This document shows positions 5,403 through 59,684 of a DNA stretch of 64,000 nt, one piece after another. Location: positions 2,699-66,698 of the IMG/VR virus record IMGVR_UViG_3300045581_000978; one strand, given 5' to 3'. The notes under the pieces are model-generated. The model did not search any database. It saw nothing but the letters and a program-made list of their open reading frames with translations, and was not told the DNA's origin. The first letter of the stretch is position 1, and the number at the start of each line of letters is the position of its first letter. Source of the DNA: a virus. The translations under genes were made by a program, and so were the position numbers.

Positions 5403-6005
5403 TTATTTAATACGGCTTCTTATATTTTCGTATGTTTTTTCTTTCAGTTCATCACTAATTAAATCTGACATACCCTGTTTAAATTTATCCAAATCTCCAT
5501 CAACAGCTAACTGTCTTAATTTTGATGCACTCATACCTTCTACCCCCTCTGAATCAGGATCTCTTTCACCTGCTGAAACAAATTCGTAAGTATTGAAGCT
5601 GAAGGGAATAATACCTTTTTTATCAGGCTTACCGTTATATGTTTCTACTACTTTCTCAAACTCAGGAATACGATCGCTACCTGCTACATGGATAATTTTA
5701 TTATATCCTTGTTGTTGCAGGTATTGTAATAAGGAAATAAATGTTTTGCCTTTATCTAATATATTGACACTCTTACTCATTTGTTTAAGAATTTCTTCTT
5801 TCTCACTATATGAAAGAGGATTCTTAACTTTATCTTCCGTGTGAGATGGAGCTATAATAGCATCAGCATTATTTTTAAGAGCTGTTTCACTCACAGTATC
5901 TATTAGCTTTTGATGACCTATTGTAGGAGGATTGTATCTGCCATAGGCTATTACAGCTACCTTATTGTCAATTTGCTCTAAGAGATACTGCTTAAATGTT
6001 TTCAT
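5403..6005 (-). CDS. HxGH-superfamily nucleotidyltransferase (phage 'cytidyltransferase')
   Basis: GRYNPPTIGHQKL, KNPLS, VAGSDR, SAGERDPD, GMSASKLR; start moved to MKTFKQYLLE at 6005. Confidence 0.85.
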   Translation of the reverse strand: MKTFKQYLLEQIDNKVAVIAYGRYNPPTIGHQKLIDTVSETALKNNADAIIAPSHTEDKVKNPLSYSEKEEILKQMSKSVNILDKGKTFISLLQYLQQQGYNKIIHVAGSDRIPEFEKVVETYNGKPDKKGIIPFSFNTYEFVSAGERDPDSEGVEGMSASKLRQLAVDGDLDKFKQGMSDLISDELKEKTYENIRSRIK

Positions 6006-7293
6006 TTTGCGGAGGTTGTGATGAGGCTTGTGCAGATCCTGGCTTACCAGTATTAAAGTTAACAGCACTAAATTCCTGTCTATTAACCATTTTTGTAATA
6101 TCTGCACCCTGATCATTTACTTTTGAAAGAGCAAATCCCTCTGGTGAGGTTGTCTGCCATACACCGGGTGATTCTTCGAGATAAGTTCCTAATATATCAC
6201 TCTTTGTAATATCGTTAAATATTTTTATGAGATTGTTTTTTAAATTTGCTACTGTCTTTGTAATTTCAAAAGCATTTTTAATAGAGCTTTTTAAAGACTT
6301 TAATTCCGATATCGTTTTTTTAGTCTCTTCTAACTTTTTAGATCTTCCTTTTTCACTTTTAAGACTTTCTAATTCTTTTTGTAATCTAAGAGTCATATAA
6401 TTTATAAACTCAGCTGCAGATACAGATGTATCTTCCAGGAATCTACCGGATCTTATCTCTGTGTTTATATAAGTCTTTAATAATGCAGTATAATCATCAA
6501 GCGCGCTAAAGTCAGTTTTCTCAGCAAGACCTAAAACGTACTTTTTCTTCTTCTTAACATCATTTAAGAGAAGTTTACTAAATTTAGATTGACCATTTTT
6601 AGGCTTACTTGCCATTACGTTAAATACAAACACCGTCTTGGAAGGAGAAAATTCTGATGGTGATGAAGTATATTTCTTAACCTTTAAAATACCGTTTTGA
6701 ACTTTATATTCTATATGTATAGCTACTCCTATTTTAGCAGCTAATATATCGCCACCATACGGGCTTTCAGGAGAAACAGCATATTTAATTGTATTAGGTG
6801 TGAAGGTAATAAATCTATTTTCATTCTTAACTCCATCAATTAAAGTAGGTGTTTCAAATTGTTTGAGTCTACTATCAAACATATAATCCATTTGATATAT
6901 ACCTTTTAAATTTAAAGAAGGAAGATATCTTAAAGCTAATGTGAGTTTTTCTACTAGACCTGGTGAATTACCATGATTTCTCTTTATGTCCTCTTCTGTA
7001 TAGTTAATTTTTGGATTTTTAGCAAACGCTGATTTACTTGCAACAAAAAAGCGATCATTATTATCTAATCCTGCTACTATAGCTGGAGCTCCATCAAATT
7101 TCGTGCTTATGACATAATCTGATTCATCAACGAAATAGGCTATAGAAGATTCGATTTGATTTAATGCCTCTATAACTCCTTGTTTACCTTTATTTAAAAT
7201 ATTTTCCTCCAAGTGATCAATATGCTTTACTGCTCCATCGATCGCATCAAAAAATTCTAAAAATAAATTATAATGTTGTTTAAATGTTTTCAT
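5992..7293 (-). CDS. DUF6267-like protein with ATP-dependent ligase/nucleotidyltransferase motifs
   Basis: HIDHLEE, STKFDGAPA (motif I KxDG), GIYQMD, PEGF (motif IV), TKMVNRQEFS (motif V). Confidence 0.7.
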   Translation of the reverse strand: MKTFKQHYNLFLEFFDAIDGAVKHIDHLEENILNKGKQGVIEALNQIESSIAYFVDESDYVISTKFDGAPAIVAGLDNNDRFFVASKSAFAKNPKINYTEEDIKRNHGNSPGLVEKLTLALRYLPSLNLKGIYQMDYMFDSRLKQFETPTLIDGVKNENRFITFTPNTIKYAVSPESPYGGDILAAKIGVAIHIEYKVQNGILKVKKYTSSPSEFSPSKTVFVFNVMASKPKNGQSKFSKLLLNDVKKKKKYVLGLAEKTDFSALDDYTALLKTYINTEIRSGRFLEDTSVSAAEFINYMTLRLQKELESLKSEKGRSKKLEETKKTISELKSLKSSIKNAFEITKTVANLKNNLIKIFNDITKSDILGTYLEESPGVWQTTSPEGFALSKVNDQGADITKMVNRQEFSAVNFNTGKPGSAQASSQPPQNENI

Positions 7294-9663: not shown

Positions 9664-10110
9664 TTATTTAAATAGAGCAAGTTTATTGGATACTTGCTTA
9701 AAGTAAATATCCTTAAGATATTTTAAATCATTCTTTTTTACATATTTCATAAACTTTCGAAAAAAAGCATTACTTTTTTCACTATTAAATATCTCCATAA
9801 CACTAAAAACCTCTTTGATGATGTATAGTTCTTGAAAATCTAATTTAGTTTCATCTATAAAAAATACAGGCTTATTAATCTTGCAGCATTTTTTAAAATT
9901 GCAAATACTAATTATTATATTATTTATTAATAATTTTTTTGTATCCGGATTAGCAATACAATATGGCATATTGTATTTTTGAGTCTCTACAGCTGTTCTT
10001 CTGAACGCGTCTTCAATCGCACTGTTTAAAGATATAGTTCTTTGGCTTTGACACTCTGAGATTAATGATTCCGTTATAATAGTCATCGCGTAAAAGTACT
10101 TCTTCGTCAA
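9664..10110 (-). CDS. Hypothetical protein (start uncertain)
   Basis: ORF track; overlaps the GIY-YIG gene, true start may be 10086 or later. Confidence 0.45.
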   Translation of the reverse strand: MTKKYFYAMTIITESLISECQSQRTISLNSAIEDAFRRTAVETQKYNMPYCIANPDTKKLLINNIIISICNFKKCCKINKPVFFIDETKLDFQELYIIKEVFSVMEIFNSEKSNAFFRKFMKYVKKNDLKYLKDIYFKQVSNKLALFK

Positions 10111-10435
10111 ATTGTATTTTAGCTTCTCTATATGCTAGTGCAAATTTAGAATCGCATAGCTCTAATATTTCAAATTTAAAATTTTCTTTACCGTATTTTA
10201 AAATATCTTCATTTAATTCACGTGATGAGGAGGTATATTCTTTCCAATTTGTTTCAATTACCTCGCAACGCTTATTCTTTTTACCTTTAAGAGGTTTTCT
10301 CTTTAAGATAGATTTACATTGTTTCTTACCGATGTATTTACGGTTATTAGTTAAACATGTTATTTTATATATAAATCCGTAAGGTATATTACCTTCTTCA
10401 ATTATAATATTCGTAGACCAATGACCTAAATCCAT
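10013..10435 (-). CDS. Stand-alone GIY-YIG nuclease domain protein
   Basis: YGFIYKITCLTNNRKYIGKKQ, WKEYTSSS, FKFEILE, YYNGII. Confidence 0.8.
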   Translation of the reverse strand: MDLGHWSTNIIIEEGNIPYGFIYKITCLTNNRKYIGKKQCKSILKRKPLKGKKNKRCEVIETNWKEYTSSSRELNEDILKYGKENFKFEILELCDSKFALAYREAKIQFDEEVLLRDDYYNGIINLRVSKPKNYIFKQCD

Positions 10436-17085: not shown

Positions 17086-19653
17086 ATGTCTTATCGAAAT
17101 TGTGTATATAGCAGCCGAACTCAATCAGTTCGGCTCTTTACCTGGGATGCTGATGGTAAGCGTATTCAGTGTGACGCGTCTGTATCTCCTTACCTGTATG
17201 TTGAGGATAATGCCGGTGATAAAACTACAATTTTTGGTACTAAGGCTAAGAAGAAGACGTTCAATAACGGTTATGAACGTAATAAATTTTTACAGGATTC
17301 AGGAATTAAAAGAGTATATGAGAATCTACCTGTAATTCAGCAATACTTAATTGATTCGTTTTGGACTGAGAATGAAAAACCTGAATTTGCTAAAAACAAG
17401 CTTAAAGTTACCTTTATAGATATTGAGACCTACTCTGTAGATTCATTTCCTAATATTGATGATCCAGATCATACCGTGAACGTTATTACTTGTTATGATA
17501 ACTTCACAGAAAAGTTTCATACGTTTGGCTTAAAGCCTTATAATGGCACTAATAAAAAGATAAAATACACTCACTGTAAAAATGAACGTGATCTGTTTAT
17601 AAAATTTATCGAGTATATCGAATCAGATTACCCGGATGTTCTAAGTGGTTGGAACTCAGAATTCTTTGATATACCTTATATTGTTAACAGGTGCGAGAGA
17701 ATATTAGGTCAAGAGTATGTAAATAGACTCTCACCTACAGGCAATGTATATTATCGCGAGGTAATGGGTAAGTTTGGCCGTCAACAAAAGCGCTATTATA
17801 TTGAAGGAGTTGCTTGTATCGACTACTTGGACATTTATAGACGATTCTGTCTTAAGCTTAGAGAATCTTATAAGCTAGATGCAATCGGTGAGATAGAGTT
17901 AGGTGAGCGCAAGGTTGATTATGGTGATATGAATTTATCTACTCTTGCAGATACAGATTGGACTAAGTTTGTTGATTACAACATTCAGGACGTTAATCTT
18001 CTTGTAAGACTAGAGGATAAGCTTCAGTATGTGGTGTTATTAAGAATGTTAGCTTATGTAGGTTTAACTACTCTTGAAGGTGCTATGGGTACTATATCCG
18101 TTATTAACGGCGCGCTAACCATTAGAGCAAGGAAGCGTAAGGAAGTATTATCGACCTTTATTCGCAATCAAGGAGCTGGTAAAAATCCTGGTGCGTATGT
18201 AGCTGAACCTAAAACCGGATTTAAGAATAACGTAGTTTCATTCGATGCTAACTCGCTATACCCTAACGTTATGATCTCTTTAAACCTATCACCAGAGACA
18301 AAAATCGGTAGAGTAGAAAAGAACGACAATGGTAATGTTAACATATATCATGTCTCAGGAAAGTGTATTGAGCTTACACCGGAGAAGTTTGGTACATTTT
18401 TAAAGTCTGAAGAATGTTCCTTAACCAAAGCAGGATTCTTGTTTACTCAAAAGAAAAAAGGTATTATACCTGAGTTTCTAGATTATTATTATAACGAGCG
18501 AGTTAAGATCAGAGAGGAACTCTTTAAGGTTAAGCAGCAGCTAGCAAGTCTTAAAAAGAGTGATAGTAATTATACTAATTTAAAGTATGAAGTTGAGAGG
18601 CTCAATACAAAGCAGATGGTTATTAAAATTCTTATTAACTCTGCATACGGTTATATGGGTAACAAGCAAGCACCTATCGGTGATGATGACATCGCTTCAT
18701 CAGTTACTCTAACAGGGCAAGCAATTATTAAACAAGCTGGTAAGTTGCTCCAAGAATATCTTACTGAAAAATTTAATGTAACGGATCAAAACGTACTGGA
18801 TGAAAGCTGGGTATACTCTGATACAGACTCTTGCTATTTCTCCTTAGATTGTATTAAGGATAGAGTACCCATTAAAGCTAATGAGGATATTAACCCTGAG
18901 TTTTATAATGTAGTAGGTGATATTGAAAACTATCTCAATAAAAATATTACTACCTGGGCTGAAAAAACCTTAAGAACAAAAGATAGTAGGTTCGTATTTA
19001 AGCGTGAGTGTATAGCTGATGTAGGATTATTCCTTCAGAAAAAAAGATACGTTATGCATATTCTTGATGACGAAGGTATTAAGGTAGACAAGTTTAAGTA
19101 TACAGGGGTTGAGGTTGTTAGGACGTCTATGCCTAACGCAGTTAAGCCTTATGCAAAGAAGATTATTGAAACAATGCTTTTAACCCAATCTCATCATCAA
19201 ACTAACAAGGTGTTAAAGGAGACATATGAAGTATTTAAAACTCTACCTATCGAAGACATAGCATTTGTTATGGGTGTTAAGGGCTATGAAAAATACGCTA
19301 CTCAGTGTAAGGAGTTCAATATAGCGAAGAAGACACCGGTTCATGTTAAGGCTGCATATCTTCATAACTTTATTAATAAGAAGCTTGAAGTAGACAAGAA
19401 ATATGAGGAGATATCTTCCGGTGACAAAATTCGTTTTTACTATACCTTACAACCTAATAGATATGGTATTGATGTAATTGGATTCAAATATAATAGACCG
19501 GATGAATATGAGGAGTATTTTAAGGTCGACTATGAGAAGATGTTTGAAAAGATTCTATATAATTCTATTGAAAGGTTCTATGACAACGTTAAGTGGCAGA
19601 TTAGAAAACCTACCGATAATGTTCAAACAGAGCTTTTCGACTTGTTTAACTGA
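17086..19653 (+). CDS. gp43: Family B DNA polymerase
   Basis: DIET exonuclease motif, SFDANSLYP, KILINSAYG, YSDTDS, KKRY; C-terminal ELFDLF clamp-binding-like peptide. Confidence 0.97.
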   Translation: MSYRNCVYSSRTQSVRLFTWDADGKRIQCDASVSPYLYVEDNAGDKTTIFGTKAKKKTFNNGYERNKFLQDSGIKRVYENLPVIQQYLIDSFWTENEKPEFAKNKLKVTFIDIETYSVDSFPNIDDPDHTVNVITCYDNFTEKFHTFGLKPYNGTNKKIKYTHCKNERDLFIKFIEYIESDYPDVLSGWNSEFFDIPYIVNRCERILGQEYVNRLSPTGNVYYREVMGKFGRQQKRYYIEGVACIDYLDIYRRFCLKLRESYKLDAIGEIELGERKVDYGDMNLSTLADTDWTKFVDYNIQDVNLLVRLEDKLQYVVLLRMLAYVGLTTLEGAMGTISVINGALTIRARKRKEVLSTFIRNQGAGKNPGAYVAEPKTGFKNNVVSFDANSLYPNVMISLNLSPETKIGRVEKNDNGNVNIYHVSGKCIELTPEKFGTFLKSEECSLTKAGFLFTQKKKGIIPEFLDYYYNERVKIREELFKVKQQLASLKKSDSNYTNLKYEVERLNTKQMVIKILINSAYGYMGNKQAPIGDDDIASSVTLTGQAIIKQAGKLLQEYLTEKFNVTDQNVLDESWVYSDTDSCYFSLDCIKDRVPIKANEDINPEFYNVVGDIENYLNKNITTWAEKTLRTKDSRFVFKRECIADVGLFLQKKRYVMHILDDEGIKVDKFKYTGVEVVRTSMPNAVKPYAKKIIETMLLTQSHHQTNKVLKETYEVFKTLPIEDIAFVMGVKGYEKYATQCKEFNIAKKTPVHVKAAYLHNFINKKLEVDKKYEEISSGDKIRFYYTLQPNRYGIDVIGFKYNRPDEYEEYFKVDYEKMFEKILYNSIERFYDNVKWQIRKPTDNVQTELFDLFN

Positions 19654-20269
19654 GTGAACAGTGCTTACCTCTTCTATGTTGCCATAATCCTTTTGTATTC
19701 ATAACTCTACCGCAGATTGAACATTCTATAGTCATTCGAGGTGTCCTAACAGCATTTTTCATTGCTTGTTTATGAGCTTTGGACTTAGGCTTTCCTTTAT
19801 GTGCAAGACTTTTTTTCTTTTTTGTCTCTTTTGACTCTTTCAAACCTTTATGACTATCACTCATTCGACGCCTTACCTCTTCAGACATTTTTTGACCTTT
19901 TTTAGCCCTACTTATTTTATGCTTAACTTCTGCAGTTTGCATAATAGCTTTACTATCTGTTAAATTTAACCAATGATCCATGTAGATGATACCACTTCGA
20001 CTTATAAACTTCTTCTCCCATCTAGCTGCATCTTCCGCGCTGGTAAACGTCTTTCTTATCTGTTTAACATCTGGATTACCATACTCTTCTAGTAGTTTAT
20101 GAACATTTTTTGAGGACGTCATATAAGTCACTAATAGATCATCCGGATGACATCCACTATCATACAAGCACTTATCTTTACGCGCATATCTCACACCATA
20201 ATAGTGTTTGTTTAATTTAGACCAAGAGAGATAATAGCAATAAGGTGTATAAATATGTTTATGCTTCAT
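19646..20269 (-). CDS. Free-standing homing endonuclease (Seg-like N-terminus plus NUMOD3 repeats)
   Basis: YTPYCYYL...YYGVRYA, Y.TSS, WE, WLN; repeats KISRAKKG, RMSDSHKG, KSLAHKGKPKS; C-terminal CxxC..H. Confidence 0.8.
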   Translation of the reverse strand: MKHKHIYTPYCYYLSWSKLNKHYYGVRYARKDKCLYDSGCHPDDLLVTYMTSSKNVHKLLEEYGNPDVKQIRKTFTSAEDAARWEKKFISRSGIIYMDHWLNLTDSKAIMQTAEVKHKISRAKKGQKMSEEVRRRMSDSHKGLKESKETKKKKSLAHKGKPKSKAHKQAMKNAVRTPRMTIECSICGRVMNTKGLWQHRRGKHCSLS

Positions 20270-20292
20270 AATTTGTAATTTTTTTGTGAAGA

Positions 20293-20322
20293 GTAGTTAG
20301 GGGTTGCAGCCCCGTGAACTAC
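20293..20322 (-). promoter_or_regulatory. GC-rich stem-loop in the endonuclease leader, just downstream of late promoter ATTAAATA (20326-20333)
   Basis: GTAGTT-CAC-GGGG-CTGCAA-CCCC-T-AACTAC on -. Confidence 0.6.
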
Positions 20323-20358
20323 AATTATTTAATCAATCAGTAAAGAACTTCGATTAAA

Positions 20359-20376
20359 TTCGATCTTTTTAGTTGA
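20359..20376 (+). pseudogene. Displaced duplicate of the gp43 3' end (FDLFS-stop)
   Basis: TTC GAT CTT TTT AGT TGA versus functional TTC GAC TTG TTT AAC TGA at 19636-19653. Confidence 0.6.
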
Positions 20377-22612: not shown

Positions 22613-23398
22613 ATGGAAATGGACAGTAAAAATATGGATTCTGAGGTGAAAGGCTCAAAAAAGTTAGTACTGTCATTTAGTGGAGGTGCTGACTCATCTG
22701 TTCTGTTGTTTATGGCAGCAGATAGAGGATATGAAGAGATTCATACCGTTACTTTCGATTACGGCCAAAGACATCGCCGTGAGATGCAGTGTGTACCTCT
22801 CCAAAAGTGGAATCTGAAAGAGAAATACCCTAACGTTAAATTTACTAATAAAGTACTTGATGTTACATATCTTAAAGACATATCGCCAACCTCATCTCTT
22901 ACGAATTTAGATATTGATAATCCAGATATTAGTCAAATTGCAGGTGATGCGCAACCGGTTTCTTATGTACCGTTTCGTAATCAGATGTTTTTAACGATCT
23001 GCTGTGCATATGCGGAGAGTTTAGGTGCTAGTTCTGTTTGGTATGGAGCAGCTCAGGTAGATTCTTTAGCAGGCTACTGGGATGGATCAACAGAATTCGT
23101 TGATTCTATAAATAACTTAATACAACTCAACAGAGAACATAGAATTTTTATTGAAGCTCCATTGCTCTCCATGTCGAAAGCAGATATTATACTAGAAGGT
23201 ATAAGACTAGGTGTTAACTTTAGAGATACGTGGACGTGTTATAGCAATCGAAAGGATGAATTAGCAGACGCAACAACACCATCAAGTAGTTTACGCGTTC
23301 AAGGGTTCATTAGCGCTGGATACAGAGATCCTATCAAGTATATTCAGCAAGATAAGCTTGATAGGATATATGAAGAAAATAACTGTATAGAATTATAA
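22613..23398 (+). CDS. queC: 7-cyano-7-deazaguanine synthase QueC (variant lacking most Zn ligands)
   Basis: SFSGGADS PP-loop, FDYGQRH, SSLT, YVPFRN, YWD, APL..MSK, TWTCY; promoter TGGAAT-N16-TATAAT at 22578-22605. Confidence 0.9.
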   Translation: MEMDSKNMDSEVKGSKKLVLSFSGGADSSVLLFMAADRGYEEIHTVTFDYGQRHRREMQCVPLQKWNLKEKYPNVKFTNKVLDVTYLKDISPTSSLTNLDIDNPDISQIAGDAQPVSYVPFRNQMFLTICCAYAESLGASSVWYGAAQVDSLAGYWDGSTEFVDSINNLIQLNREHRIFIEAPLLSMSKADIILEGIRLGVNFRDTWTCYSNRKDELADATTPSSSLRVQGFISAGYRDPIKYIQQDKLDRIYEENNCIEL

Positions 23399-24760
23399 AC
23401 CGTAACGTCTCAATTCATCTAATTGATACGATGTTTTAGGTTTATATCTCTCTTTGAAAGATATACTCTTTTTATCAGACTTAGCTTTATATGAGTCTTT
23501 ACGAGTTTGTTCTACAATATAGGAAGCAGTATAACTTTCAGTTACTGTTTCTTTTTCTGTAAAGCCTCTTTTCTTAGCTATCCCTCTCTCCCAATCCTCT
23601 AATTCGCCATCGTCATCAAGATCTGCTTTTTTAGCATTGAAAGTTTCATTATCCTCTTCTTTTGGACCATTAAAATAAAGTTTAGCATCCGCAAGTGCAT
23701 CAGCTTTATAATCGCTATTATATTGAGGGCTATTAATTATATAATCGATATAATATTCATCTACTTTAGATGCTGGGTTATAACCAGTAGCATGACCACC
23801 TGTTAAGTCGACAGATATCTCACCAGTAGAAGGGTCTCTTCTAGCAGTATAGGTAAGAATACCATCCACCTCTTCACCGTCATCACCTATCCATACAGTT
23901 TCGACTTCACCATCATACTCATCGCCTCGCATTGCTGCATTATAATCCTCCTCACTCACATCCTTACCTGTAAGACTAGGGTCATAGAACTCCTCAGGCC
24001 CTATTTCTTCATCTTCAGACATCTCACTATCTTCCATTTCTTCATCTTCTGTACCTTGCGAAATAGGCTTAACAGCCGACGATAAATAAGCTGCAATTTT
24101 TTCATAACCAGGTTCGTTAGAGATTTGACCAATAAATGATTTTAATGTAGCAATATCTTTAATTCTATTAGCTACTCCCATTACCTCATTAAGAGCTTCC
24201 TCCTCAATATCGAATCCAGGCTCTCCTAAATTTGAAGCTATTTTTGCAAGTATATTAGCAACAGCTGTTTTGACGAGAATAGTTTCATCAGAAACAATAT
24301 CCGTTAACGCGTCGTCCATTTGTTTACCGGACTTAACCTGTCTCATTTGATTTGCAATCTCCTGTGAAGCAGCTTGTGCAGCATATTTTTCTTCCTTACC
24401 TCTATTAACACCTACACCACTAATAAAGTCATCTAGTGTTGAAGAAACTCTTTCAGATATTTCATCAGATTTAGCATTAATTTCTTGCTGTTTCTTTTTT
24501 AGAACATTAAGCATTGCTTGTTTTTTGCCAGTAAATCCAGGAGCTTTTTTAATCATTACAAGTTCTTGATCATCAATAATGTCCAGCATGTAGAGAATCT
24601 CTCTAATAAACTTAATTGTATCAAGAGGTGCGGAGCTCAATCCTCCTGCTCTCATCTTTGATGTTATATTTCCAAATGAAGGATGCGCTCCAGCGTAAGG
24701 AGACATTTTAGCCTCATTTAAAATACTTACCCTGGCTAGTAGATCTTTGAACGAACTCAT
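23393..24760 (-). CDS. Acidic late protein, probable prohead core or internal protein
   Basis: TATAAATA 24767-24774 (-); MSSFKDLL..ILNE|A; acidic linker; EF-hand-like DLDDDGELEDWE. Confidence 0.6.
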   Translation of the reverse strand: MSSFKDLLARVSILNEAKMSPYAGAHPSFGNITSKMRAGGLSSAPLDTIKFIREILYMLDIIDDQELVMIKKAPGFTGKKQAMLNVLKKKQQEINAKSDEISERVSSTLDDFISGVGVNRGKEEKYAAQAASQEIANQMRQVKSGKQMDDALTDIVSDETILVKTAVANILAKIASNLGEPGFDIEEEALNEVMGVANRIKDIATLKSFIGQISNEPGYEKIAAYLSSAVKPISQGTEDEEMEDSEMSEDEEIGPEEFYDPSLTGKDVSEEDYNAAMRGDEYDGEVETVWIGDDGEEVDGILTYTARRDPSTGEISVDLTGGHATGYNPASKVDEYYIDYIINSPQYNSDYKADALADAKLYFNGPKEEDNETFNAKKADLDDDGELEDWERGIAKKRGFTEKETVTESYTASYIVEQTRKDSYKAKSDKKSISFKERYKPKTSYQLDELRRYGL

Positions 24761-42303: not shown

Positions 42304-42966
42304 TTAAGCAGTTCTTTGCCATACATACAAGCCAAACCCTGGTGGGGTTGTATTATGAGGTTGATTGCCTCCAGCTGACTGTGTACTTAGAGGATTGGTA
42401 ATAGTAGTGCTTTTATTTGTTTCAATACCGGTATTATTATCATCACTTGTTGTATCAGCACTTTTATTATTTCCAATACCATGAGTGTGGGAAGGCAATT
42501 CTAATTGAGTTAAAATATGATTATACTCACCAGTGTTATTACCAGGTATAAAAGTTTTAGATTCTCCTCTAGAATCAGTACCGGTACCAACACCTACGAT
42601 AAATCTACCCTGTGATATTAACGTCCAAGTAGTGCTACCCCATCCTGATCTAGTATCAGGATTAACATTATTATAAGTAAACAATACCGAATTTACAGGA
42701 TACATTACATTAAGTAAATTATAGATATCAAAATCGGTGCTTGCAGAAAGCTTTTGCGTTAAAGTTACACTAGTAGCTGAAAGAGTACCGCATATAGTAG
42801 CACCATTGCAGTTTGCCCCTAACTGTAAAGCTGTAGGAGTTCCATACCCGTCATAGATTTGTACTTGTCCGATGGGAGGTATACTCTGACCCCCAGCATG
42901 AAGTAATCCGTAAAACGTATCACTAGCGTTGACATTAGTTAAATTTGTAGCTGCTATACCTGCCAT
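42304..42966 (-). CDS. Baseplate / short-fibre protein (gp10 C-terminal-like)
   Basis: YPVNS..NP..W..I.QGRF.VG..GEYNH.LT..ELPSHTH..HN..PP....YVW.RTA; TATAAATA 42973-42980 (-). Confidence 0.75.
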   Translation of the reverse strand: MAGIAATNLTNVNASDTFYGLLHAGGQSIPPIGQVQIYDGYGTPTALQLGANCNGATICGTLSATSVTLTQKLSASTDFDIYNLLNVMYPVNSVLFTYNNVNPDTRSGWGSTTWTLISQGRFIVGVGTGTDSRGESKTFIPGNNTGEYNHILTQLELPSHTHGIGNNKSADTTSDDNNTGIETNKSTTITNPLSTQSAGGNQPHNTTPPGFGLYVWQRTA

Positions 42967-56344: not shown

Positions 56345-56501
56345 ATTGCTCCATTAAGATATTAAAAGTTTCATTAAAAGATGATTCAACCATATAAAGT
56401 TTTTTAATGTATTTCTTAGCTTTATCTACGCTAGTAGAACAGCCTACCTTTTTACCAGTATCTTTTCTATAAACACATTTACCTTTTCGTTTATACGGCA
56501 T
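56334..56501 (-). CDS. Small basic protein (55 aa, MPYKRKGKCVYRKDTGKKVGCS...), absent from the ORF track
   Basis: Translated by hand; fills the gap between the 56505 gene and gp25. Confidence 0.65.
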   Translation of the reverse strand: MPYKRKGKCVYRKDTGKKVGCSTSVDKAKKYIKKLYMVESSFNETFNILMEQYGN

Positions 56502-56504
56502 AAC

Positions 56505-56777
56505 TTACCAATTTTTGCAAGAATAGTAACGCGGAGTTCCTGGCTTAGCAGTAGAGCATTTATGTCTTGCTCTAAAAGACTTTCTCTTTTTAGGATTAGA
56601 TTTTTTAATACGTAAGTTAGGATCACCGTAATGCACTCGTTTATAACCGGTTTTGGTCTTAACGCATCTCATATATTTTTTATCTGCTCTCGTAGAAGAC
56701 TGTTGTTTAGTAGTTTTTGTGCATCTAGCTCCTGCTTTTTCTTCGAGAATTTCTTCAACTAATAGGTTAAATTCCAT
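56505..56777 (-). CDS. Small basic Cys-containing late protein
   Basis: GDPNLRIKKSNP..RKSFRARH.C..RY.SC..W motif recurrent in T4-like phages; TATAAATA 56783-56790 (-). Confidence 0.75.
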   Translation of the reverse strand: MEFNLLVEEILEEKAGARCTKTTKQQSSTRADKKYMRCVKTKTGYKRVHYGDPNLRIKKSNPKKRKSFRARHKCSTAKPGTPRYYSCKNW

Positions 56778-56782
56778 ATAAT

Positions 56783-56803
56783 TATTTATATCGAGTATAA
56801 ATA
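56783..56803. promoter_or_regulatory. Back-to-back divergent late promoters TATTTATA-tcgag-TATAAATA
   Basis: Each exact consensus lies 5 nt from an ATG (56777 and 56809). Confidence 0.8.
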
Positions 56804-56808
56804 ATAGT

Positions 56809-57390
56809 ATGACTAAAAAGTATCTAACGCTCGTAGAGGCGTATCTCAGCAGATATCAACGTGGTGGCTTTCTCGTTGGTGATGTTTTTAAATTTAATGA
56901 TAACTTTAAAACTACTGAGCAATATAAGAAACTAGGGCTCAACACTAAAGAGATGATCGATCAGATGATTGAAACTGGTCTCAATGTCCGTGTTGTAGGT
57001 ATTAAAGATACTACTTCTCCTAGATTTCCAGGTAACCCTCAAACTTCATCTAACGATGTTGAGCTCACAATAGCTCTCGACACAGGCGGTGGTAGATATA
57101 CACACTATGTAAATATCTCACCGGAAATGGGTCAACCACTTGATATTTACCCTAATTTACCGCCAATCCCAGATGAAGTTCGTCGTAAGAGCAAAGTTAA
57201 TATTAAGCCAGAGGAGTTAGAGAAGATGGATAATATCTCTAATAAGACAGATAGAGGTACTGGTAGCTATACTGATACAGAAAGATCACTTCCTACTAAA
57301 AACACAGAAATTCCTTCTATGCCAGCAACTCCATCTATGGAAGTTAACTCATATACTAAGGAGTATATGTCTGAGCTACAGAAGTATTAA
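56809..57390 (+). CDS. Hypothetical late protein
   Basis: ORF track; late promoter; MTKKYLTLVE|A. Confidence 0.7.
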   Translation: MTKKYLTLVEAYLSRYQRGGFLVGDVFKFNDNFKTTEQYKKLGLNTKEMIDQMIETGLNVRVVGIKDTTSPRFPGNPQTSSNDVELTIALDTGGGRYTHYVNISPEMGQPLDIYPNLPPIPDEVRRKSKVNIKPEELEKMDNISNKTDRGTGSYTDTERSLPTKNTEIPSMPATPSMEVNSYTKEYMSELQKY

Positions 57391-57431
57391 TTTACTCTCT
57401 CGAGATTGATCCAACACGCAAAGCAGTTAAT
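57387..57431 (-). pseudogene. Displaced duplicate of the gp44 3' end (INCFACWINLERVN-stop)
   Basis: 11/11 aa identity to gp44 residues encoded at 58312-58344; begins immediately after the endonuclease stop. Confidence 0.9.
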
Positions 57432-58268
57432 TTAATCAGAAAGAACTTTTAAAAGTTCTTTCCAACTTGTAACATTAAACACCTCCCTATATTTGTGTAT
57501 TATACATCTCTTGCTTAGTTGCAGCTCTGTTGCTATTTTAGTAAGATTGGCTCCTTCTTTTACTAGAGTAGTAAATAGTTTAACCGGAAATTGTTTGTAA
57601 TTACCGTTTTTAGTATTTTGTTGTGTATTAAAGTAAGCAATATTATTATTTTTACAAAATTTTTTTAAGGTAATACCAGGGTAAAAATTACTTTTAAAAA
57701 AATTTATATTTACTTTTAATATTTTCGCTATCTCTTTATTAGATTTACCTTCACGCAATAAGGCTAAATATTTTTGTTGTGATATGTTTTTTGCCATGTG
57801 ATTATTTTTCTTAATAGATTTTCTCTTACAGTACTCAGCTAACGACTCATTTTTATAAAATCTCTTTTTAAGAAGTGACTTACTGCAGTTTAATTTTAAC
57901 GCTATATTTTTAAGTAAAACATTTCTCTCTAGATAATATAAAAACTCATTCTCGTATATTTTCTTTTTACAGCCAGACCTACCACCTTTACCACCTTCAC
58001 AAATATTTAACAGCTTTTCATTATTGTATAGAGATATATATTTTTTCTCTAAATCATAAGCTACTAGCTCGTCTTCTATATCTGCTACTAAATATATACT
58101 TATATCTAACCAGTTATACCCCGCTGCTAATAATTTATTTAATTTATTAAGATGGTGTTTATTTCTACATGATAGTGAACGAGCCCTACCCCTCACACCT
58201 TTACCTATATAAAATATATTTTTTGTTGTAGGGTCTATGTGAGCATAAATATAATACTTATTTTCCAT
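57432..58268 (-). CDS. Free-standing GIY-YIG homing endonuclease with three C-terminal HTH-like repeats
   Basis: YYIYAH.DP....FYIGKG...RA, AYDLE..YI, LLN..EGG.G; repeats IALKLNCS, IAKILKVN, IATELQLS; GATAAATA 58274-58281 (-). Confidence 0.85.
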   Translation of the reverse strand: MENKYYIYAHIDPTTKNIFYIGKGVRGRARSLSCRNKHHLNKLNKLLAAGYNWLDISIYLVADIEDELVAYDLEKKYISLYNNEKLLNICEGGKGGRSGCKKKIYENEFLYYLERNVLLKNIALKLNCSKSLLKKRFYKNESLAEYCKRKSIKKNNHMAKNISQQKYLALLREGKSNKEIAKILKVNINFFKSNFYPGITLKKFCKNNNIAYFNTQQNTKNGNYKQFPVKLFTTLVKEGANLTKIATELQLSKRCIIHKYREVFNVTSWKELLKVLSD

Positions 58269-58302
58269 ACAAGTATTTATCTCTTAATCGACTTTTTTTT
58301 AA

Positions 58303-59241
58303 TCAACTTTTTTCCAAATTTATCCAGCATGCGAAACAATTTATCTCTTTATCTAATACGTGTGCAGAACGCCAAAGATGATCAGCAATAATAGCGATCA
58401 TCTCTTTCTTTTTAAGGTCTTGAACTGGTTGCTGATATAGATAATTAAGATAATCTCTCATAAGCGTATCGTAATCGCCATAGAAAGCGCTTTCATTCTC
58501 AATAAGATGCTTTCTCAGCGAAAGTACATCCTTCTGCTCAATAGCAGAAAATATAGCTTTAAGCAAAGCATTATCTACACTAACCGTATTAATAGATAGA
58601 GTACCATCAATACAGTTCTTCTGAATTTCGTTAATAGTCTTGCGAAGATCGGGGAAGTTAGCCTTTACTAACTCAACAAATTTCTTCTTCTGTACTTCGT
58701 CTATTTCAATACCTTCCTGCTTTAAGATATTATAAACTCTCTTTACACCATCTTCAATAGTAGGTTTAATATCAAGAAACTGACATCTAGACTGCAGAGC
58801 AGGTATAATCTTATGCTTATAGTTAGCAGTAAGTATGAATCTAGTATACTTCGCGAAAGACTCCATTGTATTACGCAAAGCAGCTTGCGCTTGACCCGTT
58901 AGACCATCACACTCGTCAAGTATTACTACTTTTACCTTACCATCAAACGATTTAGTTTGTGAAAAGTTAGTGACTTTATGTCTAATAGTATCAATACCAG
59001 ATTCATCCGAAGCGTTAATATAAAGGTAGTTACACTTCAATACATCGTTAACGATGATACGCGCCAAACTAGTTTTACCAGTTCCAGGCGTACCTACAAA
59101 CAGTAGGTTTGGTATCTCATCGGTAAATCCGTTAATGATCTCACGCGTTCTATCTGACAATATAATGTCATCTAACTTCTGCGGTCTATACTTTTCCGTC
59201 CAGATCCCTTGTAGGAAACCACCTTTAATTACACTTTCCAT
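58303..59241 (-). CDS. gp44: Clamp loader large subunit
   Basis: WTEKYRP, GTPGTGKT, INASDE.GID.IR, ILDECD, LQSRC, FPDLRK. Confidence 0.93.
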   Translation of the reverse strand: MESVIKGGFLQGIWTEKYRPQKLDDIILSDRTREIINGFTDEIPNLLFVGTPGTGKTSLARIIVNDVLKCNYLYINASDESGIDTIRHKVTNFSQTKSFDGKVKVVILDECDGLTGQAQAALRNTMESFAKYTRFILTANYKHKIIPALQSRCQFLDIKPTIEDGVKRVYNILKQEGIEIDEVQKKKFVELVKANFPDLRKTINEIQKNCIDGTLSINTVSVDNALLKAIFSAIEQKDVLSLRKHLIENESAFYGDYDTLMRDYLNYLYQQPVQDLKKKEMIAIIADHLWRSAHVLDKEINCFACWINLEKS

Positions 59242-59252
59242 ATTATTTTATA

Positions 59253-59684
59253 TTACTTACCAGATGAACCAAATCCACTAGCACCTCTATCGGATTCTTC
59301 AGTTTCACCTTCTTCAACTACTACATCATAGTTTTTATATACAACGAACTGAGCAATTCTATCGCCTTTTTTAACTTCATAAGCAACATCTGTGTTATTA
59401 TAAAGCTTAATACCTGCGTTAGAACGATATCCATTATCAATGATACCTGGATGAGCTGAAATCCCGTGCAAAAATCCCATGCCACTGCGGCTTTCTACTT
59501 TTACCCAGTAACCAGGTGTGATATATGCGAAATCTAAACCAACATCTACTACAGCACTACCTCTACCAGGAATAGTTTTATCCTCTACACAATAGACATC
59601 GAACCCGGTATCAGACACATTGTTCTTTGTAGGGAGCTTAGCGTCTACACTAGTCTTTTTAAATTTTAACGTTACTACACTCAT
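59253..59684 (-). CDS. dut: Trimeric dUTPase
   Basis: GFD, RSG, GIIDNGY, GDRIAQ, RGASGFGSSG; promoter TTGATT-N16-TATAAT at 59691-59718 (-). Confidence 0.95.
   Translation of the reverse strand: MSVVTLKFKKTSVDAKLPTKNNVSDTGFDVYCVEDKTIPGRGSAVVDVGLDFAYITPGYWVKVESRSGMGFLHGISAHPGIIDNGYRSNAGIKLYNNTDVAYEVKKGDRIAQFVVYKNYDVVVEEGETEESDRGASGFGSSGK

What the first reader, a model, noticed from the sequence alone, without database searches (positions are those of the whole stretch)
57387..58344. Homing endonuclease cassette that replaces its target gene's 3' end with a synonymously recoded copy (gp44)
Seen: gp44 ends ATA AAT TGT TTC GCA TGC TGG ATA AAT TTG GAA AAA AGT TGA (INCFACWINLEKS*). Immediately after the GIY-YIG gene's TAA lies ATT AAC TGC TTT GCG TGT TGG ATC AAT CTC GAG AGA GTA AAT TAA (INCFACWINLERVN*). 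Over 11 codons the protein is identical, yet 10 of 33 nt differ, all synonymously, in 9 of the 10 degenerate codons. That looks like more than neutral saturation. Inference: the mobile unit is [recoded gene tail + late promoter + endonuclease]. It inserts inside an essential gene with no intron or intein, keeps the protein intact, makes the allele immune to cleavage, and avoids a direct repeat that would delete it. A parallel case occurs at gp43. Established precedent: endonuclease elements carrying a replacement 3' gene end in fungal mitochondria, and integrative elements that restore target genes. I am not aware of this being described as a general strategy in T4-like phages.
Basis: partly seen in the sequence, partly recalled or inferred. 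Interest (0 to 1): 0.85.

Follow-up and report, generated by a model that had tools for sequence, protein, structure and literature searches.

The report
Phage homing endonuclease replacing gene tail
A selfish endonuclease gene in an uncultured freshwater T4-like phage sits inside the end of an essential replication gene and brings its own differently spelled copy of that gene's last codons, leaving the original end behind as a relic, an arrangement known from yeast and fungal mitochondria that I did not find described for phages.

Summary
gp44 (clamp loader, minus strand 58303-59241) ends INCFACWINLEKS*. Directly after the stop of a 278-aa GIY-YIG-type ORF lies a second copy, INCFACWINLERVN* (57387-57431). 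The two differ at 10 of 33 nt, all synonymous.

In 33 of 80 related viral contigs gp44 abuts the convergent 193-aa gene, and it ends with the codon set of the downstream copy. So the downstream copy is the native tail and the translated tail is foreign.

The window's gp44 switches its nearest relative at codon column 291, from its own clade to L029/L030. These are the only other contigs that carry this endonuclease, and they too keep a tail relic at the same junction.

Contigs of an independent sequencing run hold unoccupied alleles. In them 27-29 nt of native codons stand in place of 940-942 nt, which is the cassette.

A smaller second case at gp43 is confirmed, with an 18-nt relic after a different endonuclease.

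The best reading is a homing element that replaces the host gene's 3' end, organised like yeast WHO elements and fungal mitochondrial mORFs. Cleavage and immunity are untested. Selection for the recoding is only weakly supported, and the arrangement is rare (2 of 102 GIY-YIG loci screened).

The parts
58378..59241 (-). gp44-like clamp-loader large subunit: the native part of the gene (codon columns 1-290)
   Evidence: Pfam AAA 5e-17 and Gp44_lid 1.1e-10. PHROG 168, clamp loader, 4.1e-80. 76-79% nt identity to clade A loci L001-L013 over columns 13-290.
58345..58377 (-). Foreign or co-converted tract: codon columns 291-301 (LWRSAHVLDKE). It replaces the native LYKSAFV.DKE.
   Evidence: The maximum chi-square breakpoint falls at column 291. 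The 63 non-redundant alleles without the endonuclease all have Y at column 292. In run X3 the unoccupied alleles carry 27-29 nt of native codons exactly here.
58303..58344 (-). Translated replacement tail INCFACWINLEKS plus stop, spelled differently from the native tail
   Evidence: It differs at 8-11 of 33 nt from the 13 native tails with the same residues, and at 5 from L029's translated tail.
58269..58302 (-). Spacer of 34 nt with GATAAATA (58281..58274) 5 nt before the endonuclease ATG
   Evidence: L029 has CATAAATA in the same place. GC is 0.206.
57432..58268 (-). 278-aa endonuclease gene: N-terminal GIY-YIG-type domain followed by three helix-turn-helix-like modules
   Evidence: Pfam GIY-YIG at E 0.013, below the cut-off, plus HTH families. 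The best fold matches are GIY-YIG nucleases. 48% identical to the L029 ORF. GC is 0.270 against 0.36-0.38 in the flanking genes.
57387..57431 (-). Relic of the native gp44 tail (INCFACWINLERVN*), untranslated. Proposed right-hand homology arm.
   Evidence: It differs at 3-5 of 33 nt from native tails, which is within their own range of 0-5. It abuts the 193-aa gene as native tails do. Unoccupied alleles in X3 run straight through it.
56809..57390 (+). Convergent 193-aa gene of unknown function: the native right-hand neighbour of gp44
   Evidence: It lies within 36 nt of the gp44 stop in 33 of 80 loci. Its 3' end is nearest clade A, so no foreign tract lies to the right of the relic.
19646..20269 (-). 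Second case: a 207-aa endonuclease-like ORF (NUMOD3 plus zinc finger), convergent with gp43 and overlapping its last 8 nt
   Evidence: Pfam NUMOD3 2.4e-5. It is absent at this site in all 80 gp43 loci.
20359..20376 (+). Relic of the native gp43 end (FDLFS*), 29 nt before the next gene as in empty alleles
   Evidence: The 18 nt are identical to the last 18 nt of gp43 in L247. The window's translated end is FDLFN*, with 5 nt different.

Best explanation
This is a homing element that invades the 3' end of an essential gene without an intron or intein. It does so by carrying its own replacement for the part of the gene it cuts off.

The occupied allele reads, in gene order:
- the gp44 body;
- the foreign codons 291-301;
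- the foreign, differently spelled tail and stop;
- a 34-nt spacer with a late-promoter-like motif;
- the GIY-YIG-type endonuclease gene;
- the native tail relic;
- the neighbouring gene.

Inferred mechanism. The enzyme cuts unoccupied gp44 alleles in or next to the strongly conserved codons 291-302. The break is repaired from an occupied genome during co-infection. The left end pairs in the invariant KKKEMI..ADH block. The right end, which is the recipient's own tail, pairs with the donor's relic. Everything between is copied in.

The recipient's tail therefore becomes the new relic. The new translated tail keeps the protein intact, no longer matches the target, and shares no run longer than 5 nt with the relic. 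That should hinder both loss of the element by repeat recombination and repair that skips the endonuclease gene.

Shown: the anatomy, the foreign origin of the translated tail, the native origin of the relic, occupied and unoccupied alleles with exact boundaries, and the same junction in two genetic backgrounds. Inferred: cleavage, its position, immunity, and the role of the relic as a homology arm.
For: 1. Empty alleles. In 33 of 80 loci gp44 abuts the 193-aa gene, and the closest ones end ATT AAC TGC TTT GCT/G TGT TGG ATT AAC/T CT. GA. AGA GT. ..., which is the relic's codon set.

2. The relic lies 3-5 of 33 nt from the 13 non-redundant native tails with the same residues. The translated tail lies 8-11 nt from them. 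The native tails differ from each other by 0-5 nt.

3. Mosaic gene. Against the clade A consensus the window diverges by 20.6% before column 291 and by 41.4% after it; 6 of 2000 permutations reach that contrast. In the last sliding window L029/L030 become the nearest relatives, at 0.77 against at most 0.68 for any other locus. The reverse also holds: L029 is nearest L024-L028 along most of the gene and switches to the window at the end.

4. The two occupied lineages share rare derived letters in columns 291-312, at 8 of 66 sites against 12 of 828 in the gene body (Fisher P 3.6e-5).

5. A second tail copy occurs only in the window, L029 and L030. These are the only 3 of 81 sequences that carry this endonuclease.

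6. In L029 the relic starts at the same junction, although the next gene downstream is a different one, a 171-aa ORF.

7. Run X3, from an independent study, holds two kinds of contig. One 506-nt contig carries the endonuclease N-half, the spacer and the foreign tail, and ends at 58375. Two others join 57433 to 58374 or 58376 through 27 or 29 nt that read as native codons 291/292-301.

8. Logan contigs of X1 bridge both junctions with 0 differences. X1 may be the source sample.

9. The endonuclease gene stands out by composition (GC 0.270). Its N-terminal domain folds like GIY-YIG nucleases.

10. The organisation and proposed mechanism match those published for WHO elements (PMC7282813, section 10 read) and for mitochondrial mORFs (PMC3630166, passages read).
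Against: - No cleavage data exist, so the target, the cut position and the immunity of the occupied allele are all inference.
- Context is available for only two lineages: the window, and L029/L030, which are near-identical.
- The other 11 full-length homologues could not be placed on DNA.
- L029's relic lacks 6 nt, and the endonuclease ORF reads into it in another frame. An intact relic is therefore not required.
- In the window the 193-aa gene could serve as the right-hand homology arm just as well as the relic.
- W292, which I first took for a mark of occupied alleles, also occurs in two alleles without the endonuclease, L165 and L167.
- X3 holds an allele with the window's codons 292-301 followed by a native-type tail. 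That tract may simply be a donor lineage's native flank rather than part of the element.
- The GIY-YIG assignment is below Pfam's cut-off, and no fold match reached E 0.001.
- The joints in X3 have short sides of 23-25 nt.
Confidence: 0.8

Rival explanations
1. This is an ordinary free-standing endonuclease gene. It arrived once through a sloppy, microhomology-type join on its right side. The relic is inert debris, and later spread uses the neighbouring genes as homology.
For: L029's relic is damaged: 6 nt are missing and the endonuclease ORF runs into it. The 193-aa gene lies directly beside the relic in the window. Free-standing T4 endonucleases are known to spread with flanking DNA (PMC2988022, passages read).
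Against: The junction is the same in two backgrounds whose next downstream gene differs, the 193-aa gene in one and a 171-aa ORF in the other. The relic is therefore the only right-hand flank they share. The two endonucleases are only 48% identical, yet both relics are still readable and native-like. That fits renewal at each homing event better than old debris. The unoccupied alleles in X3 break exactly at the start of the relic.
Confidence: 0.12
2. The different spelling of the translated tail is plain neutral divergence. The tail comes from a distant, more AT-rich donor lineage whose synonymous sites are saturated. Nothing selected for recoding.
For: Between the window and 46 distant relatives, 50.6% of same-residue degenerate codons differ in the gene body, so many differences are expected anyway. 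L029's translated tail differs from its own relic at only 5 of 27 aligned nt. The translated tail's new codons mostly end in A or T, and the cassette is AT-rich. The P of 0.012 was computed after the locus had been picked.
Against: 9 of 10 degenerate codons changed, against 0.506 expected (P 0.012). The translated tail lies 8-11 nt from every native tail, while native tails of different clades differ by at most 5. No identical run longer than 5 nt is left between the two copies (my reading).
Confidence: 0.45
3. Assembly chimera: two phage strains were joined wrongly, which created a false duplication.
For: The window is a metagenome contig, and related strains coexist in the same samples.
Against: The same architecture appears in contigs from two other metagenomes, L029 and L030. 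A second assembler's contigs bridge both junctions with 0 differences in X1. A 506-nt contig from an independent study (X3) spans endonuclease, spacer and foreign tail.
Confidence: 0.02
4. A spliced element, either a group I or II intron or an intein, restores a continuous gp44 that uses the downstream copy.
For: The downstream copy is in frame with the endonuclease stop codon and has no internal stop.
Against: No Rfam intron family matched 56500-59500 at E up to 1. gp44 has its own stop and a length of 312 aa, like its relatives. The endonuclease has its own start and a promoter-like motif. Using the relic would duplicate 11 residues.
Confidence: 0.01

Closest known systems
WHO elements of Torulaspora and Lachancea yeasts (Coughlan et al. 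2020, PMC7282813; Osborne et al. 2026 preprint, 10.64898/2026.08.13.744650)
   Same: - The endonuclease gene sits just downstream of a full-length essential host gene.
- Each integration replaces the host gene's 3' end with a resistant variant.
- The old 3' end is left downstream as a fragment, which is proposed to act as the homology arm.
- The host gene becomes a chimera whose 5' and 3' parts have different histories.
- No splicing is involved.
   Different: - The yeast enzymes are LAGLIDADG/intein-derived with zinc fingers; this one is GIY-YIG-type with helix-turn-helix modules.
- WHO elements live in a nuclear eukaryotic genome and home in meiosis; this element is in a phage and would home during co-infection.
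- WHO elements replace about a third of FBA1 and build clusters of up to 9 genes. Here 24 codons are replaced (5 at gp43) and there is one element per site.
- Cleavage was shown for WHO6; none has been shown here.
Mobile endonuclease ORFs (mORFs) of fungal mitochondria with a foreign C-terminal and a native C*-terminal (Beaudet et al. 2013, PMC3630166; Allomyces atp6, Paquin et al. 1994, seen only as cited there). Also C-terminal duplications of atp6 and cob beside endonuclease ORFs (PMC6279837).
   Same: - The order is gene core, inserted C-terminal, endonuclease ORF, then native C-terminal.
- The native copy matches close relatives and the inserted copy is divergent.
- One of the Glomus cases (atp9) has a GIY-YIG enzyme.
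- Most differences are synonymous.
   Different: - These are organelle genomes.
- The inserted C-terminal is often in phase with the endonuclease ORF and has no stop. Here there is a stop, a spacer and a separate start.
- The duplications are longer.
Free-standing Seg/Mob homing endonucleases of T4 and 'intronless homing' (Edgell et al. 2010, PMC2988022)
   Same: - It is a GIY-YIG-type enzyme with a separate DNA-binding part.
- The gene lies beside an essential gene.
- Flanking markers are co-converted.
- Presence and absence vary among relatives.
- It has its own late-type promoter.
   Different: - The T4 cases lie between genes, or split a gene into two polypeptides (mobE in Aeh1 nrdA, mobA in gene 60, seg in gene 43 of phage 25).
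- A search of that review's text found no occurrence of 'duplicat', so it describes no replacement tail or relic.
Synthetic 'home-and-rescue' gene drives that insert into an essential gene and carry a recoded rescue copy (recalled from memory; no paper read here)
   Same: The design logic is the same: cut an essential gene, restore it with a recoded and cleavage-resistant 3' part, and avoid homology with the target.
   Different: Those are engineered, RNA-guided and in insects. This element is natural and protein-guided.

Membership tests
GIY-YIG homing endonuclease (free-standing, Seg-like) | GIY-YIG catalytic domain | tested here: inconclusive
   Pfam PF01541 covers profile positions 1-75 of 78, but at E 0.013 and 16.3 bits against a cut-off of 22.6; for L029 the figures are E 0.0037 and 18 bits. 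The model has mean pLDDT 81.7. The best Foldseek matches are the GIY-YIG nuclease PD-T4-3 (E 8.5e-3, prob 1.00, 91 columns) and the I-TevI catalytic domain (prob 0.85, TM 0.51 on the target), and none reaches E 0.001. Y6, Y8, Y20, G22, R28, E74 and N88 are invariant in 12 homologues. Equating them with I-TevI's catalytic residues rests on recall.
GIY-YIG homing endonuclease (free-standing, Seg-like) | Separate DNA-binding region | tested here: met
   Residues 100-278 are helical modules with weak GerE, HTH_7 and HTH_23 hits, all below the cut-offs. A PDB 'CAP repeat' matches at 1.4e-4. The helices appear in the model.
GIY-YIG homing endonuclease (free-standing, Seg-like) | Present or absent at one fixed site among related genomes | tested here: met
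   Present in 3 of 81 sequences (window, L029, L030) and absent in 78. Occupied and unoccupied forms occur together in run X3.
GIY-YIG homing endonuclease (free-standing, Seg-like) | Site-specific cleavage of the unoccupied allele | not testable with these tools
   This needs protein and DNA substrates.
Homing element that replaces the host gene's 3' end (WHO / mORF type) | Endonuclease gene directly downstream of a full-length host gene, followed by a fragment of that gene's 3' end | tested here: met
   The second copy occurs only where the endonuclease is present.
Homing element that replaces the host gene's 3' end (WHO / mORF type) | The 5' and 3' parts of the full-length host gene have different histories | tested here: met
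   Breakpoint at column 291. The nearest relative switches in both occupied lineages. They share rare derived sites.
Homing element that replaces the host gene's 3' end (WHO / mORF type) | The downstream fragment matches the native allele of relatives that lack the element | tested here: met
   The relic is 3-5 of 33 nt from native tails and the translated tail is 8-11.
Homing element that replaces the host gene's 3' end (WHO / mORF type) | The occupied allele resists the element's own endonuclease, and the fragment serves as the recombination arm | not testable with these tools
   Only indirect evidence: the junction is identical in two backgrounds with different downstream genes.
Homing element that replaces the host gene's 3' end (WHO / mORF type) | No RNA or protein splicing | tested here: inconclusive
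   No Rfam family matched at E up to 1, and gp44 is complete with its own stop. No RNA data were examined.

The most novel reading that the evidence does not exclude
Phage homing endonucleases have independently arrived at the 'third category' of homing element so far credited to yeast WHO elements: invading a coding sequence without splicing by carrying a replacement 3' end.

On this reading the replacement is actively kept out of register with the native sequence, changed at every possible third base. The purpose would be to destroy the target, to block repeat-mediated loss, and to force repair to copy the endonuclease gene. The left-behind tail would be a working homology arm that is renewed at each jump.

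Two unrelated endonucleases doing this at two replisome genes within one 64-kb window would mean it is a recurrent and overlooked route in phages. It would also mean that short 'orphan' gene ends beside endonuclease genes are its footprints.
Probability: 0.35. Interest if true: 0.8.

Novelty: new variant of a known kind. Interest (0 to 1): 0.62.

Why it matters
It would show that a homing endonuclease can enter an essential phage gene with neither an intron nor an intein, and without splitting the protein.

It would also extend an arrangement outside eukaryotes and to another nuclease family. A 2026 preprint (10.64898/2026.08.13.744650, passages read) calls that arrangement a rare third category of homing element.

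Practical consequences:
- The 3' ends of phage core genes such as gp44 and gp43 can be foreign and can mislead phylogenies.
- Short untranslated gene ends beside endonuclease genes mark past invasions and locate the insertion site. Together with the conserved 33 nt that the cassette replaces, they point to the likely target, which makes the enzyme's specificity directly testable.
- The layout is a natural counterpart of engineered 'recoded rescue' gene drives (that comparison is recalled, not checked).

Tried and rejected
**Searches that found nothing further**
- Megablast of 56700-59300 against cultured phages gave no match. The closest cultured gp44 is 38% identical and the closest gp43 is 31-32%, so no annotated relative could be used.
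- I made three scans for more occupied alleles: viral contigs with a 3-sequence alignment, metagenome contigs, and viral contigs with a 12-sequence alignment. All returned only the L029/L030 contigs as full-length relatives. All other hits cover only the N-terminal domain.

**Ideas dropped**
- I first took W292 for a signature of occupied alleles. A pattern search then found two alleles without the endonuclease that also have it, so I dropped the idea.
- I checked whether the native tail is unusually conserved at synonymous sites. It is not: 0.444 of same-residue codons differ in the tail against 0.474 in the gene body.
- I checked for a foreign tract to the right of the relic and found none.
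- Other insertions between gp44 and the 193-aa gene (38 of 80 loci, 259-1716 nt) are small non-endonuclease genes without any tail relic, apart from L029 and L030, which carry this endonuclease.

**Screen for the same architecture elsewhere**
- I screened 102 non-redundant GIY-YIG ORFs with flanks for translated repeats across the endonuclease gene.
- Only the window (score 70) and L151, which is the L029 contig (score 49), show a tail copy.
- L203, L120 and L181 scored 46-54 through fibre-like or low-complexity repeats. The highest score among 150 mismatched control pairs was 42.
- The screen would miss relics as short as the one at gp43.

**Literature**
- Literature searches and text look-ups in PMC2988022 and PMC10448857 turned up no phage description of a replacement tail with a relic.

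**Read coverage**
- In runs X4 and X7 no contig covered the endonuclease gene. I draw nothing from that.
Full report
**What is there.** On the minus strand the window carries four features in a row: a dUTPase gene (59253-59684), a gp44-type clamp-loader gene (58303-59241), a 278-aa ORF (57432-58268), and then 45 nt that repeat the end of gp44 (57387-57431). The stop of this repeat overlaps the stop of a convergent 193-aa gene (56809-57390). gp44 is identified by Pfam AAA and Gp44_lid and by PHROG 168. The two tail copies encode the same 11 residues with 10 of 33 nt different, all synonymous, in 9 of the 10 degenerate codons. The longest identical run between them is 5 nt (my reading). A six-frame scan of the whole 66.7-kb contig found no other run of consecutive shared 6-residue words within 4 kb.

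**Where it comes from.** No cultured phage is close. Megablast finds nothing, gp44 is at most 38% identical to cultured phages, and gp43 is 31-32% identical to cyanomyoviruses. The runs that hold the sequence are labelled freshwater metagenomes. IMG/VR holds 359 gp44 relatives, of which the best 80 (69-88% amino-acid identity) were kept as loci L001-L080.

In 33 of the 80 loci the gp44 stop lies within 36 nt of the end of the 193-aa gene. In 38 loci 259-1716 nt are inserted, in 3 loci 68-92 nt, and 6 loci gave no comparable distance. The closest empty alleles (L001, L005, L007, L008, L010) end ATT AAC TGC TTT GCT/G TGT TGG ATT AAC/T CT. GA. AGA GT. TCT TAA. That is the codon set of the window's downstream copy, not of its translated tail.
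- Among the 13 non-redundant alleles without the endonuclease that have the same 11 residues, pairwise differences are 0-5 of 33 nt.
- The downstream copy differs from them at 3-5 nt.
- The translated tail differs from them at 8-11 nt.

The downstream copy is therefore the native tail left in place, and the translated tail is foreign.

**The gene is a mosaic.** Codon-aligned sliding windows place the window's gp44 nearest clade A (L001-L014) along the gene. In the last window, columns 291-310, L029/L030 become nearest at 0.77, against at most 0.68 for any other locus. Against the clade A consensus, divergence is 20.6% before column 291 and 41.4% after it. The maximum chi-square breakpoint falls at column 291, and 6 of 2000 permutations reach it. 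The foreign tract is thus 24 codons, of which the last 13 duplicate the relic, and the native codons 291-301 are gone. L029 behaves the same way in reverse: it is nearest L024-L028 along most of the gene and switches to the window at the end. The two occupied lineages share rare derived letters (found in at most 15% of 63 native alleles) at 8 of 66 sites in columns 291-312, against 12 of 828 in the body (Fisher P 3.6e-5). To the right of the relic, the 3' end of the 193-aa gene is nearest clade A, so nothing foreign lies there.

**The other occupied lineage.** Only L029 and L030 carry a homologue of the 278-aa ORF. They are near-identical contigs from two metagenomes, and the homologue is 48% identical and 291 aa long. 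After it lies ATT TTC GCT TGC TGG ATT AAC TTG GAA TGC GTC AAT TAG. This is a gp44 tail that starts at the same codon as the window's relic but lacks 6 nt, and the endonuclease ORF reads into it in another frame. There the next gene is a 171-aa ORF rather than the 193-aa gene. A second tail copy was found in exactly the 3 of 81 sequences that have this ORF.

**Occupied and unoccupied alleles in reads.**
- Logan contigs of X1, which may be the source sample, bridge both junctions with 0 differences (56600-58109 and 58091-59400).
- In X3, from another study, a 506-nt contig matches 57868-58375 with 5 differences and 4 gaps and stops at the foreign-tract boundary.
- Two other X3 contigs join 57433 to 58374 or 58376, skipping 940 or 942 nt. 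The 27 or 29 nt between read, in gene sense, as native codons 291/292-301 (..TAT AAA AGC GCG TTT GTT GTC GAT AAA G, and a variant).
- These are unoccupied alleles, and they fix the boundaries of the cassette. Their shorter sides are only 23-25 nt.
- X3 also shows a loose end in which the window's codons 292-301 are followed by a native-type tail (GAA ATT AAC GCG TTT GCG TGT TGG GTT AAT).
- A 19-kb X3 contig of depth 44.7 is identical to the window over 58346-58415 but about 17% different further upstream.

The last two points raise two possibilities. Codons 292-301 may be a donor lineage's native flank that was co-converted. Alternatively, alleles that are resistant but lack the endonuclease may exist. 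I cannot tell which.

**The enzyme.**
- Pfam gives only sub-threshold GIY-YIG matches (E 0.013, and 0.0037 for L029), though these span nearly the whole profile, together with weak helix-turn-helix families.
- A model built on 12 homologues has mean pLDDT 81.7.
- Its best Foldseek matches are the GIY-YIG nuclease PD-T4-3 (E 8.5e-3, prob 1.00), the I-TevI catalytic domain (prob 0.85) and the UvrC GIY-YIG domain. None reaches E 0.001.
- The family is rare, with 14 homologues among 5.8 billion proteins.
- The gene has GC 0.270, against 0.36-0.38 for its neighbours.
- GATAAATA lies 5 nt before its ATG, and L029 has CATAAATA there. NATAAATA lies 3-8 nt before 15 of 68 ORFs in the window.
- No Rfam family matched the region at E up to 1.

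**Mechanism.** The anatomy is the one published for yeast WHO elements. There the endonuclease cuts the unoccupied host gene, repair copies the element together with a resistant 3' end, and the recipient's old 3' end pairs with the donor's downstream fragment and becomes the new fragment (PMC7282813, section 10 read). Fungal mitochondrial mORFs have the same order of parts (PMC3630166, passages read).

Applied here, the cut would fall in or near the 33 nt that the cassette replaces. Native alleles conserve these letters strongly: the majority codon has a frequency of 0.54-0.95, and Y292 is present in 63 of 63. The left arm would be the invariant KKKEMI..ADH block and the right arm the relic. 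All of this is inference, because nothing was cut here. The same junction in two backgrounds with different downstream genes favours a role for the relic. L029's damaged relic shows that it need not be intact.

**Is the recoding selected?** Between the window and 46 distant relatives, 50.6% of same-residue degenerate codons differ in the gene body. That gives P = 0.012 for 9 or more of 10, computed after the locus had been chosen. L029's two copies differ at only 5 of 27 aligned nt. The translated tail's new codons mostly end in A or T, as expected from an AT-rich element. I regard selection for recoding as possible but not shown.

**The gp43 case.** gp43 (17086-19653) ends ...ELFDLFN*. A convergent 207-aa ORF with a NUMOD3 motif and a zinc finger (19646-20269) overlaps its last 8 nt. 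In the six closest of 80 gp43 loci the gene ends ...FDLFS* or ...FELFS*, and the next gene starts about 30 nt later. In the window, TTC GAT CTT TTT AGT TGA at 20359-20376 is identical to the last 18 nt of L247's gp43, and it lies 29 nt before that next gene. So a second, unrelated endonuclease gene sits between a translated end and a native relic, although only 5 codons are involved.

**How general.** Among 102 non-redundant GIY-YIG ORFs with usable flanks from viral and metagenome contigs, only the window and the L029 contig show a translated repeat of a gene end across the endonuclease gene. The screen cannot see relics as short as the one at gp43. The arrangement is therefore rare or mostly short. 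'General strategy' is not established.

**Novelty.** The kind is known from yeast nuclei and from fungal mitochondria. A 2026 preprint calls WHO elements a third category of homing element, 'considerably more rare', and says they restore the host gene 'uniquely' in this way (10.64898/2026.08.13.744650, passages read). My searches found no phage account. The 2010 review of T4 mobile DNA contains no word starting 'duplicat', and a 2023 survey of phage nuclease genes uses the word only for repeats within endonuclease genes. I rate it a new variant of a known kind: a new host type and a new nuclease family.

Noticed in passing
window 19646-20376: Second replacement-tail case. A NUMOD3 and zinc-finger endonuclease-like ORF is convergent with gp43, and an 18-nt native gp43 end (FDLFS*) is left 29 nt before the next gene.
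   Followed up: yes
window 20270-20358: The stretch between the gp43-side endonuclease start and the relic holds two things: a G+C-rich inverted repeat (aggggttgcagcccc) and a stretch (aaagaacttcgat) that loosely resembles native gp43 codons ..ACA GAA CTG TTC GAT. It could be an older, decayed relic.
   Followed up: no
window, 15 of 68 ORF starts (for example 1610, 23393-24760, 42304-42966, 56777, 56809): NATAAATA lies only 3-8 nt before the ATG, leaving no room for a ribosome-binding site if it is a T4-type late promoter. Transcripts may be leaderless or nearly so.
   Followed up: partly
window 9664-10435, minus strand: A 140-aa ORF consists of a SegE-type GIY-YIG domain only (Pfam 1e-30). 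It overlaps the next 140-aa ORF by 74 nt. It may be a truncated or frameshifted endonuclease gene.
   Followed up: no
L165 9276-9575 and L167 855-1787: Two gp44 alleles lack the endonuclease yet carry W at column 292 and some cassette-like codons (ATA AAT). They may represent a donor-type lineage or one that lost the element.
   Followed up: partly
run X3 laid on window 58346-58415: One contig end shows the window's codons 292-301 followed by a native-type tail. The abundant 19-kb contig (depth 44.7) is identical to the window only over these 70 nt. This hints at a resistant allele without the endonuclease, or at recent exchange of this short tract.
   Followed up: partly
protein P0005 (307 aa, homologue of the endonuclease): It has a 28-residue N-terminal extension containing ..SLAGLIWKES.., which loosely resembles a gp44 tail (..FACLINLEKS). 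In that genome the replacement tail may run in frame into the endonuclease ORF, as in some fungal mORFs. No DNA was available.
   Followed up: no
L001-L080, junction between gp44 and the 193-aa gene: The junction is a variable spot. 38 of 80 loci hold 259-1716 nt of extra DNA, mostly small minus-strand genes of two families that start MS.KKD..L.EAY. Apart from L029 and L030, which carry the endonuclease, none of these is an endonuclease gene or has a relic.
   Followed up: partly
L203 and L181: GIY-YIG ORFs here are flanked on both sides by fibre-like, T/G/A-rich repeats. The endonuclease genes appear to sit between paralogous fibre genes.
   Followed up: no
window 5992-7293 and 5403-6116, minus strand: The word MKTFKQ occurs twice about 1.3 kb apart on the minus strand, once at the start of the 433-aa ORF. 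This is an isolated word match and may be chance.
   Followed up: no
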